Shown here one piece after another: positions 6,234-10,543 of a stretch of 64,000 nt of DNA. The DNA is taken from positions 1 to 64,000 of IMG/VR virus record IMGVR_UViG_3300047586_000066. One strand, written 5' to 3'. The notes under the pieces are model-generated. The model saw nothing but the letters and a program-made list of their open reading frames with translations, made no database searches and had not been told where the DNA came from. This DNA comes from a virus. Every line of letters starts with the position of its first letter. The stretch's first letter is position 1. Made by a program: the position numbers and the translations under genes.

Positions 6234-6310
6234 TGGTGTCCCGTGCGGGATTTGAACCCGCGATCCCCGGAGTGAAATTCCGATATCCTTGGCCACTAGA
6301 CGAACGGGAC
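6234..6310 (-). tRNA. tRNA-Glu(TTC)
   Basis: Acceptor GTCCCGT/ACGGGAC, anticodon arm TCGGA-AT TTC AC-TCCGG, T arm GCGGG TTCAAAT CCCGC, encoded CCA. Confidence 0.93.
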
Positions 6311-6314
6311 AGAT

Positions 6315-6388
6315 TGGCAGGGGCGGAGAGGATCGAACTCCCGTGAGCCGGTCCAAAGCCGGCTGCCTGGCCACTTGGCTACGCCCCA
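6315..6388 (-). tRNA. tRNA-Gln(TTG)
   Basis: TGGGGCG/CGCCCCT, GCCGG-CT TTG GA-CCGGC, T loop TTCGATC, CCA. Confidence 0.92.
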
Positions 6389-6547
6389 ATAATTCATGGT
6401 CTGATACTTTGCTCTCTGCCTCTTACGCGATCCAACATATCCCATCGACAGTTGTGGCACCATGGCAAGATCGGACTTTTATACATCCTCCAATACGTCG
6501 CAGGACCTCCGCATTCGAAACAGAGTTTTCCGATTAAATCCAAAGGT

Positions 6548-6620
6548 TGGGGTGAGGGCGGGACTTGAACCCGATCAACCGGGCCACAACCGATTGCTCT
6601 AACCATTGAGCTACCCCCAC
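6548..6620 (-). tRNA. tRNA-His(GTG), atypical
   Basis: GTGGGGG/CCCTCAC, D arm GCTCAATGGTTAGAGC, ATCGG-TT GTG GC-CCGGT, C73, CCA; 4-bp T stem and no genomic G-1. Confidence 0.8.
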
Positions 6621-6626
6621 TATAAA

Positions 6627-6716
6627 TGCCGGAAGAAGGGTTCGAACCTTCATGCTTGAGTTGTAATAAGCCTGGGATTTTAAGTCCCATGTGTCTGCCA
6701 CTTCCACCATTCCGGC
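6627..6716 (-). tRNA. tRNA-Leu(TAA)
   Basis: GCCGGAA/TTCCGGC, TGGGA-CT TAA AA-TCCCA, long variable arm, A73; CCA not encoded. Confidence 0.92.
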
Positions 6717-6723
6717 TTACACA

Positions 6724-6812
6724 TGCCGTGGAGGCATGAACCAGGGTTTCGATCCCTGCGGGGCCGCCCCCTATTAACCAGCGAACTCATGGACTCGTCG
6801 CCCTCCACGGCA
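6724..6812 (-). ncRNA. tRNA-like structured RNA enclosed in an 11-bp stem
   Basis: TGCCGTGGAGG/CCTCCACGGCA outer stem, inner CATGAGT/GTTCATG, T-like arm CAGGG ATCGAAA CCCTG; sits in a tRNA slot between tRNA-Arg and tRNA-Leu. Confidence 0.55.
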
Positions 6813-6817
6813 ATCTT

Positions 6818-6893
6818 TGGCATGCCCGGCAGGATTCGAACCTGCGACCCTCTGTTTAGAAAACAGGTACTCTGTCCTCTGAGTTACGGGCAT
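6818..6893 (-). tRNA. tRNA-Arg(TCT)
   Basis: ATGCCCG/CGGGCAT, CCTGT-TT TCT AA-ACAGA, GCAGG TTCGAAT CCTGC, CCA. Confidence 0.93.
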
Positions 6894-6896
6894 GCA

Positions 6897-6973
6897 TGGT
6901 CGGGGAGACTGGATTCGAACCAGCGCATTTCACGGTCCCAGGCCGTGAGCCTTCCCAGCTTGGCCACTCCCCG
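6897..6973 (-). tRNA. tRNA-Pro(TGG)
   Basis: CGGGGAG/CTCCCCG, CACGG-CC TGG GA-CCGTG (C at 33), GCTGG TTCGAAT CCAGT, CCA. Confidence 0.9.
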
Positions 6974-6980
6974 ATTGTCA

Positions 6981-7214
6981 TCATTCCACTTTGATGAAGT
7001 AAATGAAAGGATCTCTGCCGAGAAAAACCAGCTCTCCATCCAAGAACAGAGCTGTTTGTCCCTGATATGAGTCCGTGGCAAGAGAATCTGCTTTGAATTC
7101 CAGATTCGCGACAGACGATCCGACTGACATTTTCACGCTTACAGTTCTGACTTTTTTGAAGTTTGTCACCTTGATGCGGACGTCAGAAGTATTCGACTTT
7201 GAGGTTTTCTTCAT
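6981..7214 (-). CDS. Hypothetical protein
   Basis: 77-aa ORF, RBS GGAGG. Confidence 0.5.
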   Translation of the reverse strand: MKKTSKSNTSDVRIKVTNFKKVRTVSVKMSVGSSVANLEFKADSLATDSYQGQTALFLDGELVFLGRDPFIYFIKVE

Positions 7215-7512
7215 TCATTGCCGCCTCCACGCGGCTATCGATATCTTTGAGTTGTCCGAGTCTGCGGGCACACTCCAGCTTATGCCACGCCTGAAACTTT
7301 GACGAAACTATGAGTCTCTCGAATGCAGCTTTCTTGTTTTGAGCTTGGGAGCGGAATTCTCTTCCTTCTGCCATCGCCCCGGAGACCTCATGTGTTATCC
7401 GAACTCCGTTTTGATTGGAGTTCTGATGTTGGCCTCCGGGGCCGCCAGTACAGAAGGTCTGAATCTTGAAGTCCTTCTTTGTGAGACTGAACAGTAGTTT
7501 TTTCCCGTGCAC
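7183..7512 (-). CDS. Peptidyl-tRNA hydrolase / RF-1 domain protein (ArfB/PrfH-like)
   Basis: FCTGGPGGQHQN...GVRITH...RSQAQNKKAA; class I release-factor catalytic domain with no stop-recognition domain. Confidence 0.9.
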   Translation of the reverse strand: MHGKKLLFSLTKKDFKIQTFCTGGPGGQHQNSNQNGVRITHEVSGAMAEGREFRSQAQNKKAAFERLIVSSKFQAWHKLECARRLGQLKDIDSRVEAAMNEENLKVEYF

Positions 7513-7523
7513 TGGTGCACTCC

Positions 7524-7835
7524 TTACTGTCCGGCTGCCTGCTTCTCCAGCCGGTCAATCTCATCCTTGAGAGCCTGACGTTTCTCTTCTGCGGGCAGAA
7601 GAGATTCCAGCCGAGATTTCTTCTCCCGGATGAGCTTTTGGATTCGATCAGCGTTTCGAGACCGGATCTCACGCCGGATATCGGCGAGTTTGACGTCCAG
7701 GAATTCAGGAGCCTCAACAGCCAGAGTCACAAATTCATTCTGAACAGCTCGTCCGATCGCCGACAGAGCGACAAGATCTTCGATAGCAGTCACGCTATCG
7801 ATGTCGAACTTTCGGATTTCATCGATCAGGTACAT
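7524..7835 (-). CDS. Small coiled-coil protein downstream of Ro60
   Basis: ATG 7835 (MYLIDE) after AAGGAGG; helical, charged. Confidence 0.65.
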   Translation of the reverse strand: MYLIDEIRKFDIDSVTAIEDLVALSAIGRAVQNEFVTLAVEAPEFLDVKLADIRREIRSRNADRIQKLIREKKSRLESLLPAEEKRQALKDEIDRLEKQAAGQ

Positions 7836-7851
7836 GTTCCTACCTCCTTTC

Positions 7852-9390
7852 TTAGTCTTCGGATTGCGAACCATAATTGAAAGCCTCCTTGAGAGTCAGA
7901 AGCGGAGTCGCCAGGACTTCATCAACCAGGCTGTACCGGTTCGTTCTCATGGTTTTGACCAGGTTTGCCACGGAATAGTAATCGATGGTTCCCTTGGTCA
8001 AATCGAATTCCTGGAGGTCGAATCCATTGCTCTTCATCGACACAGCCAGATCGACGTCGCCCCAGCCCTGTGCTCCCTTCGCGCAACGATACAGGTAAAC
8101 AGGAACCTGTTTGTCGGCGAACTTGGAATAAAGCTGGTACGCATTCGCAAAGATGGGAGGAGTGTTCTCCTGGGCATCCGAGATAATAGCAATGCCGTCG
8201 AGCTCTTCTTTCCCTTCCAGAGCACGCGCAAGTCCGCAACCGATCGATGTCCCGCCCATGGCGTTTATATTCCGTGTCCTTTTAACGATCTCATCATAAG
8301 CCATGTTGGTGACGTCAATGGTTTGAGGAGTCTGGTCGAAAAAGCTCAGGGAGACTTTACCCATTGCCATTTTCGCCAGGACTCCGGCAACCATGCGGGC
8401 TACCTCTATGGTTGCTCCCATGGACCCAGACTTATCACCCAGCACCAGCCAGTTACCCTCTACGGCGCCAAGCGCCTGAATCTGTTTTTCCTGAACAGAG
8501 TTCAGCTTCGCCTTGAGCTTCTCATCTCCGATAGCTTCCGCGGCTCGAGATGTCTTGAAGGTGGACTTCTTGGACTTCGAAGCCTTTTCCAGCGCCTCTT
8601 CGTATGCCGCTCGAAGAGCAGGGTTGTCTTTGATACCCATCTTCTCCAGCATCTTTGTGCTGTTGATCAACTGTAAAGACGTCATCCCTTGGATCAGAGC
8701 CAGTACGACATCCGGATCCTTTGCCTTCTCACCCAGAGCACCCATAACAATCATCGGAGGAAGATTCTTTTCGAGAATCGTTCCCGCTATTTCCCTGGGA
8801 CTCATGTCCTTCAGGTGGGCCACGGCATGAAATACGCTGCCAGCCGGCAACGGCGATCTGACGGGCTTCCGTCCTTCGGCCTTTGCCTTCAGGCGTTCGT
8901 CCAGCGTATGACCGAAAATAACAATGTTCACGTAATCCGACCCAGGCTTTACGTCCGCAAGGGCGTAGAGTTCGTGAAGCACCGCTCGGTGCTGGATGGC
9001 CATTCGTTCCCATCCGTTCTTTTCCTTCTCATGCAAATAGGTTCCGATGAACCGTTTCAACGTCTTGCCATGGCCTGGGGTCCTGACCTCGAGGGCAAAG
9101 CGATAAGCCTTCAAGAGTTCCCTGGGATTCAATAAAGACAGCGCAGCCAGAGAGTTCTCGATGAATTCCTTGGGAAAATCAGAAACCATCAAGGAAACTA
9201 TAGGCAGAGCTGCCTTGGCATCGCGTATCTGCCCATTGATGCGATCCCAGGCAATCATGTGAGCGAAGAATTCCGGATCATTCGAAGCAGCCAGTTTCCC
9301 CACGCGCACGTATTCATTGAGTTTTCCGTGCGGAGATTTGCTGAGTTCAGACAAAATTTGGTTCTTGGTTACTTTGATGGTCTCGGTCAT
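7852..9390 (-). CDS. Ro60/Rsr-like TROVE + vWA RNA-binding protein
   Basis: ATG 9390 (MTETIKV) after AAGGAG; about 512 aa; helical N-terminal region (DPEFFAHMIAW...IRD), C-terminal vWA with MIDAS LVLGDKSGSM, GGTSIG, IISDAQEN; flanked by Y-like RNAs and tRNAs. Confidence 0.82.
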   Translation of the reverse strand: MTETIKVTKNQILSELSKSPHGKLNEYVRVGKLAASNDPEFFAHMIAWDRINGQIRDAKAALPIVSLMVSDFPKEFIENSLAALSLLNPRELLKAYRFALEVRTPGHGKTLKRFIGTYLHEKEKNGWERMAIQHRAVLHELYALADVKPGSDYVNIVIFGHTLDERLKAKAEGRKPVRSPLPAGSVFHAVAHLKDMSPREIAGTILEKNLPPMIVMGALGEKAKDPDVVLALIQGMTSLQLINSTKMLEKMGIKDNPALRAAYEEALEKASKSKKSTFKTSRAAEAIGDEKLKAKLNSVQEKQIQALGAVEGNWLVLGDKSGSMGATIEVARMVAGVLAKMAMGKVSLSFFDQTPQTIDVTNMAYDEIVKRTRNINAMGGTSIGCGLARALEGKEELDGIAIISDAQENTPPIFANAYQLYSKFADKQVPVYLYRCAKGAQGWGDVDLAVSMKSNGFDLQEFDLTKGTIDYYSVANLVKTMRTNRYSLVDEVLATPLLTLKEAFNYGSQSED

Positions 9391-9407
9391 GACGGCACTC
9401 CTTTTAA

Positions 9408-9497
9408 TCGCTGGAAGTCGATCGGCTTGGGTAGACAAAGGGCACAAGGCCCTCCGCCTCATGTGTTCAAGACATGTAGGCCAGTCAGTACCAGCGA
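9408..9497 (-). ncRNA. Y-RNA-like unit Y5 (payload: UGA anticodon-like arm plus hairpin)
   Basis: TCGCTGG-TACTGAC-TGGCCT-ACATG...AAGCCG-ATCGACTT-CCAGCGA; hairpin CATGT CTTGAAC ACATG. Confidence 0.75.
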
Positions 9498-9504
9498 AAC
9501 TTAA

Positions 9505-9639
9505 TGGCGGCAAGTCGGTGAGGCTTTTTTGCTTGACGAACCCCCCATAAGGTAAAAGGTGGGGGGTCCAGGATTTGAACCTGGGTTGACTTCGTGTTAT
9601 GAAGTTGTCTTAACCATGTATCCTCATCAGTGACCGCCA
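9505..9639 (-). ncRNA. Y-RNA-like unit Y4 (tRNA permuted in the D loop)
   Basis: TGGCGG-TCACTGA-TGAGG-ATACATG...CCTCA-CCGACTT-GCCGCCA; order 3' D half, anticodon arm, T arm CCAGG TTCAAAT CCTGG, closed acceptor ACCCCCC/GGGGGGT, 5' D half. Confidence 0.82.
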
Positions 9640-9645
9640 AACTCA

Positions 9646-9712
9646 TTGGCTCCCGACCCACGATGGGAATTTCCGCAAATTACAAACCGTTAGGTTCCTT
9701 TACGAGAGCCAA
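9646..9712 (-). ncRNA. Structured ncRNA Z2 (second type)
   Basis: TTGGCTCTC/GGGAGCCAA closing stem, GTAAA, CCCA-TCG-TGGG hairpin. Confidence 0.55.
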
Positions 9713-9716
9713 ACTC

Positions 9717-9795
9717 TTTGGCCTCCCACCCTTTGGGACTGTCTCCTCTTTCCTCAGAAACAAACAGGCCAAACAGGACATTTACAGAGGCCAAA
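9717..9795 (-). ncRNA. Structured ncRNA Z1 (second type)
   Basis: TTTGGCCTC/GAGGCCAAA closing stem, GTAAA, TGTC/GACA, CCC-AAA-GGG. Confidence 0.55.
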
Positions 9796-9798
9796 CTC

Positions 9799-10110
9799 TT
9801 ATTTTCTAAGCTCTGGGGGGACAAACGCATCTTCCTTGATGTTCTGCTCCGCTAAAACCGTATGATCTTTCTGCAAGCTGTTCAAGATCGCTGCCAGGAT
9901 TCTCCAGTACCAGCGTTTGTCCTTTCCCCTATTGCATCGGCTCGAGATCGTTTCCCCGGGAAGTCCGCCGAGGAGTGCGTTGAAAAACTCGTCGATTCCG
10001 ATCAGGAGGTAATAGATAAAGAGTCTCCAGCCGCGCTTCCTCCCATTGAGGATAGCTGTCAGCACAATGACTCCGAGAAGGAGCCAGAAGAATCCTTTTA
10101 CCCAGATCAT
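9799..10110 (-). CDS. Small membrane protein inside the ncRNA array
   Basis: ATG 10110 after AGGAGG; two hydrophobic segments; IDEFFNALLGGLPGETISSR motif seen in small phage membrane proteins. Confidence 0.7.
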   Translation of the reverse strand: MIWVKGFFWLLLGVIVLTAILNGRKRGWRLFIYYLLIGIDEFFNALLGGLPGETISSRCNRGKDKRWYWRILAAILNSLQKDHTVLAEQNIKEDAFVPPELRK

Positions 10111-10129
10111 CGTTTCCTCCTGAATTTGC

Positions 10130-10252
10130 TTGGCCTGCAAGTCGGCTAAGGTTTCATTGCGTCTCCCACTCGGGAGCCCCCCCATACTGTGATTTGTGGA
10201 GGGGGGCCGATGTGATCGGCTTCACATGTACCCTTATTCAGTAACAGGCCAA
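10130..10252 (-). ncRNA. Y-RNA-like unit Y3 (degenerate permuted tRNA-like payload)
   Basis: TTGGCCTG-TTACTGA-ATAAGGG-TACATG...CCTTAG-CCGACTT-GCAGGCCAA; GCCGA/TCGGC arm, CCCCTCC/GGGGGGG stem, CTCCC GAGT GGGAG. Confidence 0.75.
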
Positions 10253-10258
10253 ATTCTA

Positions 10259-10401
10259 TGGCGGCAAGTCGATCAGCTCGTTGTCGTCGCGTTTGCCATT
10301 TCCGCCATCCCCCCACAAGTAGGGGGAGTAGGAATCGAACCTACAATCTCCCTTTCGGGAAAAACGGGCCCTAAGCCATGTAAGCTCCAAAGTAGACGCC
10401 A
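10259..10401 (-). ncRNA. Y-RNA-like unit Y2 (tRNA-Leu(UAG) permuted in the anticodon stem; YrlA-like T-acceptor-D order)
   Basis: TGGCG-TCTACTTTG-GAGCTT-ACATG...GAGCTG-ATCGACTT-GCCGCCA; variable arm TTTCCC GAAA GGGAGA, T arm GTAGG TTCGATT CCTAC, closed acceptor TCCCCCT/GGGGGGA, D arm GCGGAAATGGCAAACGC. Confidence 0.85.
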
Positions 10402-10410
10402 AATGTTTAT

Positions 10411-10543
10411 GTTCCCTGGAAGTCGATCAGCTTCTCCCTTGCGGGAATCGAATAGATGGAATCGAACCACCTACACACAGAGTTCAAATCTGTTGCTCTA
10501 CCAAATGAGCTATATTCATGTAAGCTAGTCAGTACCAGGGAAC
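10411..10543 (-). ncRNA. Y-RNA-like unit Y1 (tRNA-like payload in normal order, UGA anticodon)
   Basis: GTTCCCTGG-TACTGAC-TAGCTT-ACATG...AAGCTG-ATCGACTT-CCAGGGAAC; D arm GCTCATTTGGTAGAGC, ACAGA-TT TGA AC-TCTGT, T arm GGTGG TTCGATT CCATC. Confidence 0.82.

What the first reader, a model, noticed from the sequence alone, without database searches (positions are those of the whole stretch)
9505..10401. Two units rebuild complete canonical tRNAs when joined at the same scaffold-defined junction (permuted tRNA genes)
Seen: join the base right after ACAT to the base preceding a 5-nt linker (ACAAC in Y2, AAAAA in Y4) that leads into the inner stem. Y2 gives GGGGGGA TG GCGGAAATGGCAAACGC G ACG|GG CT TAG GG CCCGT [long variable arm] GTAGG TTCGATT CCTAC TCCCCCT A, a tRNA-Leu(UAG) with A73 and a perfect 5-bp anticodon stem spanning the junction. 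Y4 gives GGGGGGT TC GTCAAGC|GGTTAAGAC A ACTTC AT AAC AC GAAGT CAAC CCAGG TTCAAAT CCTGG ACCCCCC A, with a typical D arm spanning the junction. The acceptor stems are closed by short loops. Established: permuted tRNA genes in red algae and archaea mature by circularisation at BHB motifs followed by acceptor-loop cleavage. Inference: the Y-like scaffold may act as an excision/ligation module in a bacterial phage, or it holds a pre-nicked tRNA mimic. No RtcB or other RNA ligase is visible in this window.
Basis: partly seen in the sequence, partly recalled or inferred. Interest (0 to 1): 0.92.

Follow-up and report, generated by a model that had tools for sequence, protein, structure and literature searches.

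The report
Ro60 partner RNAs carrying permuted tRNAs
Two small RNA genes upstream of a phage Ro60-like gene each hold a complete tRNA with its halves in swapped order; they are most likely tRNA look-alikes on a Y-RNA handle, diverged relatives of bacterial YrlA, not tRNA genes that must be cut and re-joined.

Summary
Shuffled payloads never give a call.

The units belong to an array of five RNAs sharing one handle: a closing stem, YACUG, an inner stem, UACAUG, the payload, an A-rich linker, the inner stem and CGACUU. The array lies directly upstream of a 519-aa protein that Pfam misses but whose model matches Ro60 over its full length.

Related phages carry the same arrays. Their payloads are wired in four ways: normal order, or the handle leaving from the anticodon stem, the D loop or the variable arm.

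Rfam's YrlA model aligns end to end with the anticodon-stem units of relatives (37-49 bits, below the 69-bit cut-off). The anticodon hairpin appears there as an insertion at YrlA's own junction.

Orthologous units keep the tRNA body but change the anticodon regardless of identity rules. Some have lost the acceptor stem or the T and D loop signatures. The 96%-complete phage genome encodes no RNA ligase or splicing endonuclease.

I therefore read these as folded tRNA mimics needing no ligation, a new variant of Y RNAs. This scan has noted similar Ro60-linked arrays on other DNA.

The parts
10258..10401 (-). Y2: a Y-like unit with a complete class II tRNA-Leu(UAG)-like module in permuted order; the handle leaves from the 5' strand of the anticodon stem (ACG|GG)
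   Evidence: Sequence; ARAGORN on the join; covariation over five orthologues, 95% of cells paired and 16 pairs covarying
10320..10377 (-). Y2 payload, 3' part of the tRNA: G30 to A73, comprising the anticodon loop CUUAGGG, the variable arm, the T arm and the acceptor 3' strand
10315..10319 (-). Y2 acceptor loop (CUUGU) closing the 7-bp acceptor stem
10285..10314 (-). Y2 payload, 5' part of the tRNA: G1 to G29, comprising the acceptor 5' strand, the D arm and the first three bases of the anticodon stem
10378..10381 (-). ACAU of the invariant handle motif UACAUG in Y2
10266..10271 (-). CGACUU handle motif of Y2 (aligns with YrlA 'AcUuG' in relatives)
9506..9640 (-). Y4: a Y-like unit with a complete class I tRNA-Val(AAC)-like module; the handle leaves from the D loop just 5' of G18 G19
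   Evidence: (the minimum-energy fold already gives the cloverleaf arms)
9560..9615 (-). Y4 payload, 3' part: from GG of the D loop through the anticodon arm (loop AUAACAC), the T arm and the acceptor 3' strand to A73
9547..9559 (-). Y4 acceptor loop: begins CC after A73 and ends UAU just before G1, like a fused tRNA trailer and leader
9531..9546 (-). Y4 payload, 5' part: acceptor 5' strand, U8, and the D stem 5' strand to AAGC
10412..10542 (-). Y1: same handle; the payload is a normal-order tRNA-like module (class I body, anticodon UGA) followed by a small hairpin
10131..10251 (-). Y3: same handle; the payload is a hairpin, a 6-7 bp G/C acceptor-like helix closed by a loop (with ...UCCAC... 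after the 3' strand and UAU before the G run) and a second hairpin; no anticodon arm
9408..9497 (-). Y5: same handle; the payload is an anticodon-arm-like hairpin (5 bp, loop CUUGAAC) plus a second hairpin
7852..9411 (-). Highly diverged Ro60/Rsr-like protein (HEAT-repeat ring plus vWA domain), directly downstream of the array on the same strand
   Evidence: Pfam finds only a weak vWA match; phrog_850 'RNA-binding protein'; AF2 model pLDDT 82; the 12 best-ranked Foldseek matches are all Ro60/TROVE over the full length
7524..7874 (-). 116-aa helical protein, found directly after the Ro60-like gene in 52 related loci; function unknown

Best explanation
Y2 and Y4 are two of five partner RNAs (Y RNAs) of a phage-encoded, strongly diverged Ro60 protein. 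Each RNA has a conserved handle formed by its own 5' and 3' ends. By analogy with other Y RNAs, the handle should be the Ro60-binding part. Each RNA also has an exchangeable payload.

In Y2 and Y4 the payload is a complete tRNA-shaped module in circularly permuted order. The acceptor stem is closed by a loop, and the handle leaves the tRNA body from the anticodon stem (Y2) or the D loop (Y4). The RNA folds into the cloverleaf as transcribed, and the junction is an open three-way junction. Nothing has to be excised or ligated.

Shown here: the anatomy, its conservation and covariation, the Ro60 fold of the neighbouring protein, and the homology of the handle and junction to YrlA.

Inferred: Ro60 binds the handle. 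The module serves as a tRNA mimic that presents an elbow and an anticodon loop to some tRNA-recognising factor, either as a tether or as a decoy. The anticodons turn over quickly, which would fit a conflict with host factors that read anticodon loops. The acceptor loop may be opened by RNase P and completed to CCA, as shown for Mycobacterium smegmatis YrlA, giving a two-piece RNA.
For: 1. Ro60 neighbour. The 519-aa ORF at 7852-9411(-) gives a confident model. Its 12 best-ranked Foldseek matches are Ro60/TROVE structures aligned over about 520 columns, with TM 0.52-0.64 and E 7e-11 to 7e-7, and include the Ro60 of Thermus phage phiLo.

2. Shared handle. It occurs on all five window units and on the units of relatives. 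Closing stems and inner stems pair far better with their own partner than with other units' partners: 88% against 12%, and 64% against 22%.

3. YrlA homology. Rfam YrlA RF02553 aligns end to end (model 1-114) with the anticodon-stem-junction units of four relatives, at 37-49 bits and E down to 4e-8. In that alignment YrlA 'CUAc' matches UUAC of UACAUG, and YrlA 'AcUuG' matches CGACUUG. The 15-nt anticodon hairpin is an insertion at YrlA's own junction.

4. Folding without joining. Over five orthologues of Y2, 95% of cells pair and 16 of 41 pairs covary; no shuffle of 500 reaches these values. The part of the anticodon helix that crosses the open junction is 100% paired, and 2 of its 3 pairs covary.

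5. Not decoders. Orthologues of Y2 carry UAG, UAG, UAG, UGA and GUG on one class II body. Their discriminator is G in four copies and A only in the window's Y2. One copy has lost the GG and T-psi-C signatures. Orthologues of Y4 carry AAC, GAA and ACU. Orthologues of Y1 keep the D arm almost unchanged but have five different anticodon arms and acceptor stems of roughly 3 to 6 bp. One unit type has a 9-bp acceptor helix closed by a tetraloop.

6. The same handle carries non-tRNA payloads (Y3, Y5, L001:3522-3660).

7. U33 is kept in 34 of 37 loops and a purine at position 37 in 35 of 37, so the loop shape is under selection.

8. Literature. YrlA RNAs are described as resembling circularly permuted tRNAs with loop-closed acceptor stems and no anticodon loop (bioRxiv 10.1101/312249). 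M. smegmatis YrlA is cut by RNase P and receives CCA in vivo (PMC4201824).
Against: The window's own Y2 and Y4 do not reach any score with the Rfam YrlA model; the link runs through the shared handle and through relatives' units. The YrlA matches are below Rfam's gathering score (69 bits). Y2 in this window is fully canonical for Leu (class II body, A73). Y4 has A73 with A35 C36, as a Val tRNA would, so on these two alone a decoding role cannot be excluded. Ro60 binding to the handle is inferred only from gene adjacency and family precedent. The tether or decoy function is a guess.
Confidence: 0.78

Rival explanations
1. These are genuine permuted tRNA genes. The handle directs cleavage after ACAU and before the A-rich linker. 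A host ligase such as RtcB joins the two tRNA ends. RNase P and 3' processing then open the acceptor loop, giving ordinary tRNA-Leu(UAG) and tRNA-Val(AAC) for the phage.
For: The joins give tRNAs that pass ARAGORN. The join position is fixed relative to the handle in 13 units from 9 phages. Acceptor loops look like a fused trailer and leader: N73-C(C) at the start and UAU before G1, and the phages' free tRNAs often have the same UAU leader. Scaffolded anticodons seldom duplicate the free tRNAs of the same phage. UACAU is a known MazF cleavage pentad, and MazF-type cuts leave ends that RtcB can join (and general knowledge).
Against: The same fixed geometry is expected for a three-way junction, and it is the geometry of YrlA. 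There is no bulge-helix-bulge. The 96%-complete phage genome has no RtcB, Rnl1, Rnl2, splicing endonuclease, MazF or CCA enzyme. Orthologues break identity rules: a Leu-type body carries GUG or UGA, G73 goes with UAG, and a class I body carries UGA or GCU. Several units lack a usable acceptor stem. The overlap between free and scaffolded anticodons (2 cases) is close to my rough chance estimate of about 3. The same handle carries non-tRNA payloads.
Confidence: 0.07
2. This is an RNA decoy or antitoxin array that works without Ro60. The repeated units soak up a host endoribonuclease (a MazF-type enzyme at UACAU, or an anticodon nuclease at the displayed loops), in the manner of type III ToxI repeats.
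For: UACAUG is invariant in the units checked, including distant relatives whose 3' motif has changed. UACAU is the recognition pentad of several MazF enzymes. Anticodon loops vary quickly but keep U33 and R37.
Against: Every related locus was fetched through the Ro60-like gene, and in each the array lies upstream of that gene on the same strand. The handle aligns with YrlA, a known Ro60 partner. In some payloads UACAUG is partly base-paired, for example the Y5-type hairpin CAUGU/ACAUG. No toxin gene is nearby.
Confidence: 0.08
3. These are decaying remnants of rearranged tRNA genes in a phage tRNA cluster, with no function of their own.
For: Some copies are degenerate: L001:2477-2635 has lost the GG and T-psi-C signatures, and L033 holds a half unit. 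HNH endonuclease genes sit inside the arrays of relatives.
Against: Compensatory changes occur in every helix of both the handle and the tRNA module. The arrays are conserved across phages whose Ro60-like proteins are only 40-67% identical. Shuffles give no tRNA calls.
Confidence: 0.03

Closest known systems
YrlA (Rfam RF02553), the tRNA-like Y RNA bound by bacterial and mycobacteriophage Rsr/Ro60 (Chen et al. 2014, PMC4201824; Wang et al. 2018, bioRxiv 10.1101/312249)
   Same: It is encoded just upstream of a Ro60 gene on the same strand. The 5' and 3' ends form a handle. The module order is variable region, T arm, loop-closed acceptor stem, D arm. The junction motifs match (CUAC at the 5' side, a roughly 5-nt linker and ACUUG at the 3' side). 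Relatives' units align with the model end to end at 37-49 bits.
   Different: YrlA has no anticodon loop. Here a full anticodon hairpin with a 7-nt loop is inserted at the junction, so the module is a complete tRNA that a tRNA finder accepts once it is rotated. Scores are below the family cut-off, and the window's own units do not score at all. Several units occur per array, and they have further wirings (D loop, variable arm). The Ro60 is too diverged for Pfam TROVE.
Deinococcus radiodurans Yrn1 (Chen et al. 2014)
   Same: It is a Y RNA whose tRNA-like part runs in normal order, with a stem-loop in the anticodon-arm position and the handle where the acceptor stem would be. Y1 and its orthologues have the same wiring (paper text).
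   Different: Yrn1 has a 6-nt 'anticodon' loop and an incomplete D arm. Y1-type units have canonical D, anticodon and T arms.
Thermus phage phiLo Ro60 with Yrl1 and Yrl2 (PMC12135203)
   Same: A phage-encoded Ro60 with Y-like RNAs encoded upstream. The phiLo Ro60 structure is among the best structural matches of the window's protein.
   Different: The phiLo Yrl RNAs are described as stem-bulge-stem RNAs with a CGAA motif, and no tRNA module is reported. The motif here is CGAC on the 3' strand.
Circularly permuted tRNA genes of Cyanidioschyzon merolae and Thermofilum pendens
   Same: The 3' half of the tRNA lies upstream of the 5' half, joined through a loop at the acceptor ends. Rotating the sequence restores a canonical tRNA.
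   Different: Those genes mature through a bulge-helix-bulge motif, the splicing endonuclease and a ligase, via a circular intermediate (general knowledge; review PMC4090602 was listed but not read). Here there is no such motif and no such enzyme in the phage. The termini are held in a conserved Ro60-type handle, and identity rules are not kept among orthologues.
Two-piece tmRNA from permuted ssrA genes (alpha-proteobacteria, cyanobacteria)
   Same: A permuted tRNA-like domain in which the T arm and acceptor 3' strand precede a spacer and the acceptor 5' strand. The spacer is removed to give a two-piece RNA with a free CCA end. The T-arm and acceptor parts of Y2 and Y3 give weak hits to the cyanobacterial tmRNA model at exactly that region.
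   Different: There is no tag reading frame or pseudoknots. ARAGORN finds no tmRNA, and the hits are far below threshold (10-15 bits against 70).

Membership tests
Y RNA / Ro60 ribonucleoprotein (as a functional class) | Encoded next to a Ro60 (TROVE plus vWA) gene, usually on the same strand | tested here: met
   The array ends 1 nt from the start of ORF 7852-9411(-). That ORF's model matches Ro60 structures over its full length. Pfam TROVE itself finds nothing.
Y RNA / Ro60 ribonucleoprotein (as a functional class) | The 5' and 3' ends pair into a stem interrupted by a conserved internal loop or bulge | tested here: met
   A 6-8 bp closing stem, the conserved YACUG / CGACUU internal region and an inner stem; covariation shown.
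Y RNA / Ro60 ribonucleoprotein (as a functional class) | Physically bound by Ro60 | not testable with these tools
   Needs a pull-down or gel shift; no RNA-protein prediction tool was available.
YrlA (Rfam RF02553) | Scores at or above the gathering score (69 bits) with the covariance model | tested here: not met
   Window units: no match. Units of relatives: full-length matches of 37-49 bits, E 4e-8 to 9e-5. These are significant but below the cut-off.
YrlA (Rfam RF02553) | tRNA-like module with T arm, loop-closed acceptor stem and D arm, in that order, and no anticodon loop | tested here: inconclusive
   Y2 has that order but also a full anticodon hairpin. Y4 is wired differently, with the handle in the D loop.
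Permuted tRNA genes matured by circularisation (red-algal / archaeal type) | 3' half upstream of 5' half, and rotation gives a canonical tRNA | tested here: met
   ARAGORN calls the joined sequences Leu(tag) and Val(aac).
Permuted tRNA genes matured by circularisation (red-algal / archaeal type) | Bulge-helix-bulge motif at the termini to be joined | tested here: not met
   The ACAU strand and the A-rich linker face each other at one helix end. There are no two 3-nt bulges separated by 4 bp.
Permuted tRNA genes matured by circularisation (red-algal / archaeal type) | Splicing endonuclease and RNA ligase available | tested here: not met
   The phage record (96% complete) has no PF01974, RtcB, Rnl1 or Rnl2. 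The host is unknown, so a host ligase cannot be excluded.
Permuted tRNA genes matured by circularisation (red-algal / archaeal type) | A mature, joined tRNA exists | not testable with these tools
Functional decoding tRNA | Anticodon, body class and discriminator agree and are conserved among orthologues | tested here: not met
   The window copies are self-consistent (Leu: class II with A73; Val: A35 C36 with A73). The orthologues carry other anticodons on the same bodies, and the other Y2 orthologues have G73.

The most novel reading that the evidence does not exclude
The units are working permuted tRNA genes of a bacterial virus. One version: the acceptor loop is opened by RNase P and completed to CCA, so that a two-piece, chargeable tRNA stays tethered to Ro60. 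The other version: the handle is removed and the ends are ligated by a host enzyme. Either way, these RNAs would take part in decoding or in codon-specific action on the ribosome. Some relatives carry stop-codon-reading anticodons (UUA, UCA, CUA), and a stand-alone GGQ release-factor domain is encoded two genes after the Ro60-like gene.
Probability: 0.1. Interest if true: 0.9.

Novelty: new variant of a known kind. Interest (0 to 1): 0.55.

Why it matters
Y RNAs with a tRNA-like part (YrlA) have been known since 2014, but their function is still open, and the described ones lack an anticodon loop.

This phage group is large. The Ro60-like protein has at least 822 homologues, mostly on phage contigs of about 100 kb. 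Its members carry arrays of such RNAs in which the mimic is a complete tRNA with a well-formed anticodon loop. The handle can be attached at four different places on the tRNA. The anticodon changes quickly between related phages while the body stays the same.

This points to the anticodon loop and the elbow as the parts being presented. It gives a natural set of variants for asking what the tRNA-like domain of Y RNAs is for. It also shows that Ro60 proteins, and therefore Y RNAs, are missed by current protein and RNA family models. Finally, tRNA finders and annotators will mislabel these units, as ARAGORN and Rfam's tRNA model both did with Y1 ('tRNA-Ser').

Tried and rejected
1. All five window units do stop within 11 codons. 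Over 83 units, however, stops come no earlier in the AUG frame than in the other two frames: medians of 14, 11 and 23 codons, and 35%, 41% and 31% of frames ending within 6 codons. Rejected.

2. Known ribozymes or other RNA families in the handle. Nothing appears in Rfam at E up to 10. The CUGAUGAG string in Y4 is not conserved in other units.

3. Identity is 64%, no better than to the other free tRNAs (His 68%). Not supported.

4. Complementarity of free and scaffolded anticodons as a test of function. The overlap was 2 cases against my rough chance estimate of about 3. Uninformative.

5. Random-position control for the ACAUG-anchored scan. It was not clean, because control positions fell inside real units and tandem tRNAs. 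I rely on the shuffle control instead.

6. Formal pair count for the Y4 orthologues. It was not run, because the automatic alignment shifted the anticodon arm by one column. The compensatory changes were read by eye.

7. The 116-aa neighbour. The model is confident, but there is no structural match (best E 0.5).

8. Promoter and terminator scan. Nothing above the shuffle level.

Full report
**What is there.** The window is part of a 102.6-kb virus record that CheckV rates 96% complete. It carries a portal gene, a large terminase gene and a cluster of six ordinary tRNA genes at 6234-6973 on the minus strand.

Between 10542 and 9408, also on the minus strand, lie five RNA units with one common frame. 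The frame runs as follows:
- a 6-8 bp closing stem formed by the unit's two ends;
- YACUG;
- a 5-7 bp inner stem;
- the invariant UACAUG;
- a payload;
- an A-rich linker;
- the other strand of the inner stem;
- CGACUU.

Y2 is at 10401-10258 and Y4 at 9640-9506. Between Y3 and Y4 sit a small ORF (9799-10110) and two other hairpin RNAs.

The pattern is not chance. Of 85 handle-flanked units in this phage and its relatives, 37 give a tRNA call across the join. None does in five shuffles.

Where the join lies in the anticodon stem, the best score comes at one join position or at three adjacent ones. That position is 13-16 nt upstream of GACUU in 13 units from 9 phages. The linker is 5-8 nt and A-rich rather than exactly 5 nt. 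The G after ACAU belongs to the conserved handle motif (83 of 85 units).

**The neighbouring gene.** The array ends next to the start codon of a 519-aa ORF (7852-9411, minus strand).
- Pfam sees only a weak vWA domain, and the TROVE model finds nothing in the genome.
- PHROGs gives 'RNA-binding protein'.
- The protein has at least 822 homologues of about 500 aa. Every one that carries a source name is called 'hypothetical protein', and many sit on contigs of about 100 kb.
- A model built on 30 of them has mean pLDDT 82.
- Its 12 best-ranked Foldseek matches in the PDB are all Ro60/TROVE proteins aligned over about 520 columns. They include frog and human Ro60, Deinococcus Rsr and the Ro60 of Thermus phage phiLo.

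So this is a phage Ro60 that sequence models miss. The five RNAs sit where Y RNAs sit in bacteria and in other phages (PMC4201824; PMC12135203).

**Relatives.** Sixty-six related loci were fetched through the Ro60-like protein; several are duplicates of one phage. The closest phages (65-67% protein identity) carry arrays of 6-8 units with the same handle.

The payloads fall into four wirings of a tRNA:
- normal order, with the handle in place of the acceptor ends (Y1 type);
- the handle leaving the 5' strand of the anticodon stem (Y2 type);
- the handle leaving the D loop just before G18 G19 (Y4 type);
- the handle leaving the variable arm or loop.

Other payloads are not tRNAs at all. Y3 is an acceptor-like helix with two hairpins. 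Y5 is a lone anticodon-arm-like hairpin. L001:3522-3660 is a further example.

More distant relatives keep UACAUG but change the 3' motif to CGACUA or others. An ACAUG-anchored scan finds permuted tRNA-like payloads in 36 phage loci. The control for that scan was not clean.

**Link to YrlA.** Rfam's YrlA model finds nothing in the window. It does align end to end (model positions 1-114) with the class I anticodon-stem-junction units of four relatives. The scores are 49, 42.7, 40.5 and 37.4 bits, with E from 4e-8 to 9e-5, against a gathering score of 69.

The alignment is instructive:
- YrlA's 'CUAc' lies on the UUAC of UACAUG.
- YrlA's 3' 'AcUuG' lies on CGACUUG.
- YrlA's 3-bp 'anticodon-like' stem lies on the two pairs made by the far end of the payload.
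- The 15 nt that form the anticodon hairpin are an insertion exactly at YrlA's junction.

The published description already says that most YrlA RNAs resemble circularly permuted tRNAs with loop-closed acceptor stems and that YrlA lacks the anticodon loop (bioRxiv 10.1101/312249).

What is new here:
- the full anticodon arm;
- the extra wirings (D loop, variable arm);
- the size of the arrays;
- the divergence of both protein and RNA from the catalogued families.

The normal-order wiring of Y1 recalls Deinococcus Yrn1 as described in PMC4201824.

**Does it fold without joining?** Five orthologues of Y2 were aligned and a full structure (handle plus cloverleaf) was counted.
- 95% of cells pair, against 83% in shuffles.
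- 16 of 41 pairs change on both sides; no shuffle of 500 reaches the observed values.
- Sliding the partners by one to three columns drops pairing to 36-54%.
- The three anticodon-stem pairs that cross the open junction are always paired, and two of them covary. The pairs after ACAU behave the same way.

For Y4, the minimum-energy fold of the unit as transcribed already gives the D stem, anticodon arm, T arm and acceptor hairpin inside the handle. Its orthologues show compensatory changes in every arm.

The structure is thus selected for in the unjoined RNA. This fits a mimic. It does not by itself exclude later processing.

**Are they decoders?** The window copies look consistent: Leu has a class II body with A73, and Val has A35 C36 with A73. 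The orthologues do not.
- The Y2 body carries UAG three times, UGA once and GUG once.
- Its discriminator is G in the four orthologous copies and A only in the window's Y2.
- The GUG copy has lost the D-loop GG and the T-loop U-psi-C signature together.
- The Y4 body carries AAC, GAA or ACU.
- Two units with nearly identical class I bodies differ at the anticodon: UCC against GCU, which accounts for 2 of their 8 differences.
- The Y1 orthologues keep the D arm almost invariant, have five different anticodon arms, and have acceptor helices of roughly 3 to 6 bp.
- One unit type has a 9-bp acceptor helix closed by a tetraloop.
- Relatives also show anticodons that bacteria hardly use (AAU, ACU, AGG, AUC) and stop-reading ones (UUA, UCA, CUA).

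Yet U33 is kept in 34 of 37 loops and a purine at position 37 in 35 of 37. The shape of the anticodon loop is conserved. Its identity is not tied to the body. That is what a displayed mimic predicts and a decoder does not.

**Processing.** The phage record has none of RtcB, Rnl1, Rnl2, a splicing endonuclease, a MazF-type nuclease or a CCA-adding enzyme. There is no bulge-helix-bulge at the junction.

The acceptor loops, by contrast, look like a fused tRNA trailer and leader. They often start with C or CC after position 73. In 10 of 25 permuted units they end with UAU just before G1. The phages' free tRNAs encode NCCA and often have the same UAU leader. Y3-type units keep ...UCCAC... after the acceptor 3' strand.

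M. smegmatis YrlA, which has a 7-bp acceptor stem, is cut by RNase P and receives CCA in vivo. Opening of the acceptor loop is therefore plausible here, and would give a two-piece RNA still held together by the handle. This step is inferred, not shown.

**Function.** This is not known. My preferred reading has three parts. Ro60 holds the handle. The module presents a tRNA elbow and an anticodon loop to a tRNA-recognising partner. The rapid exchange of anticodons reflects either a conflict with host factors that read anticodon loops or a set of different clients.

Two leads remain untested. First, UACAU is the recognition pentad of several MazF toxins. Second, in this phage and its three closest relatives a 109-aa stand-alone GGQ release-factor domain lies two genes after the Ro60-like gene.

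**Verdict.** The reading as permuted tRNA genes matured by ligation is not supported.

I rate this a new variant of a known kind. This scan has noted similar Ro60-linked arrays of tRNA-mimic RNAs on other DNA. I found no paper describing complete, variously permuted tRNAs on Y-RNA handles.

Noticed in passing
window 7183-7512 (-): A 109-aa stand-alone GGQ (RF-1 domain) protein two genes after the Ro60-like gene. It matches domain 3 of RF1/RF2 and PrfH and has no codon-recognition domains. It is present only in the four closest related loci (three distinct phages).
   Followed up: partly
window 7524-7874 (-): A 116-aa, three-helix, highly charged protein found directly after the Ro60-like gene in 52 related loci. 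The model is confident but has no structural match. It may be a third component of the particle.
   Followed up: partly
window 9646-9797 (-): Two adjacent hairpin RNAs inside the array. They have UUUGGC...GCCAAAG-type closing stems but neither UACAUG nor CGACUU. Their folding energies are not better than those of shuffles.
   Followed up: partly
window 6720-6815 (-): Inside the ordinary tRNA cluster there is an 11-bp perfect stem. It encloses a tRNA-like piece with a T-like arm and a small GGGG/CCCC hairpin where the anticodon arm would be.
   Followed up: partly
all units, e.g. window 10378-10382 and 9616-9620 (-): The invariant handle motif UACAU(G) equals the recognition pentad of Bacillus and Staphylococcus MazF endoribonucleases. 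This could be coincidence, a cleavage site or a decoy.
   Followed up: no
window 9799-10110 (-): A small ORF (103 aa, phrog_3342, unknown function) splits the RNA array between Y3 and Y4.
   Followed up: no
L001:1896-2471 and L001:2646-3269: In a related phage, an HNH endonuclease gene and an FkbM-type methyltransferase gene are inserted between units of the array.
   Followed up: partly
L004:2323-2447, L005:4123-4263, L058:3678-3819: Some relatives' units display anticodons that would read stop codons (UUA, UCA, CUA).
   Followed up: no
window 10447-10519 (-): ARAGORN and Rfam's tRNA model both call the Y1 payload a 73-nt tRNA ('tRNA-Ser(tga)' by anticodon). It has a class I body, a mismatched first acceptor pair and no CCA, and it sits inside a Y-like handle. 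Automatic annotation would mislabel it.
   Followed up: yes
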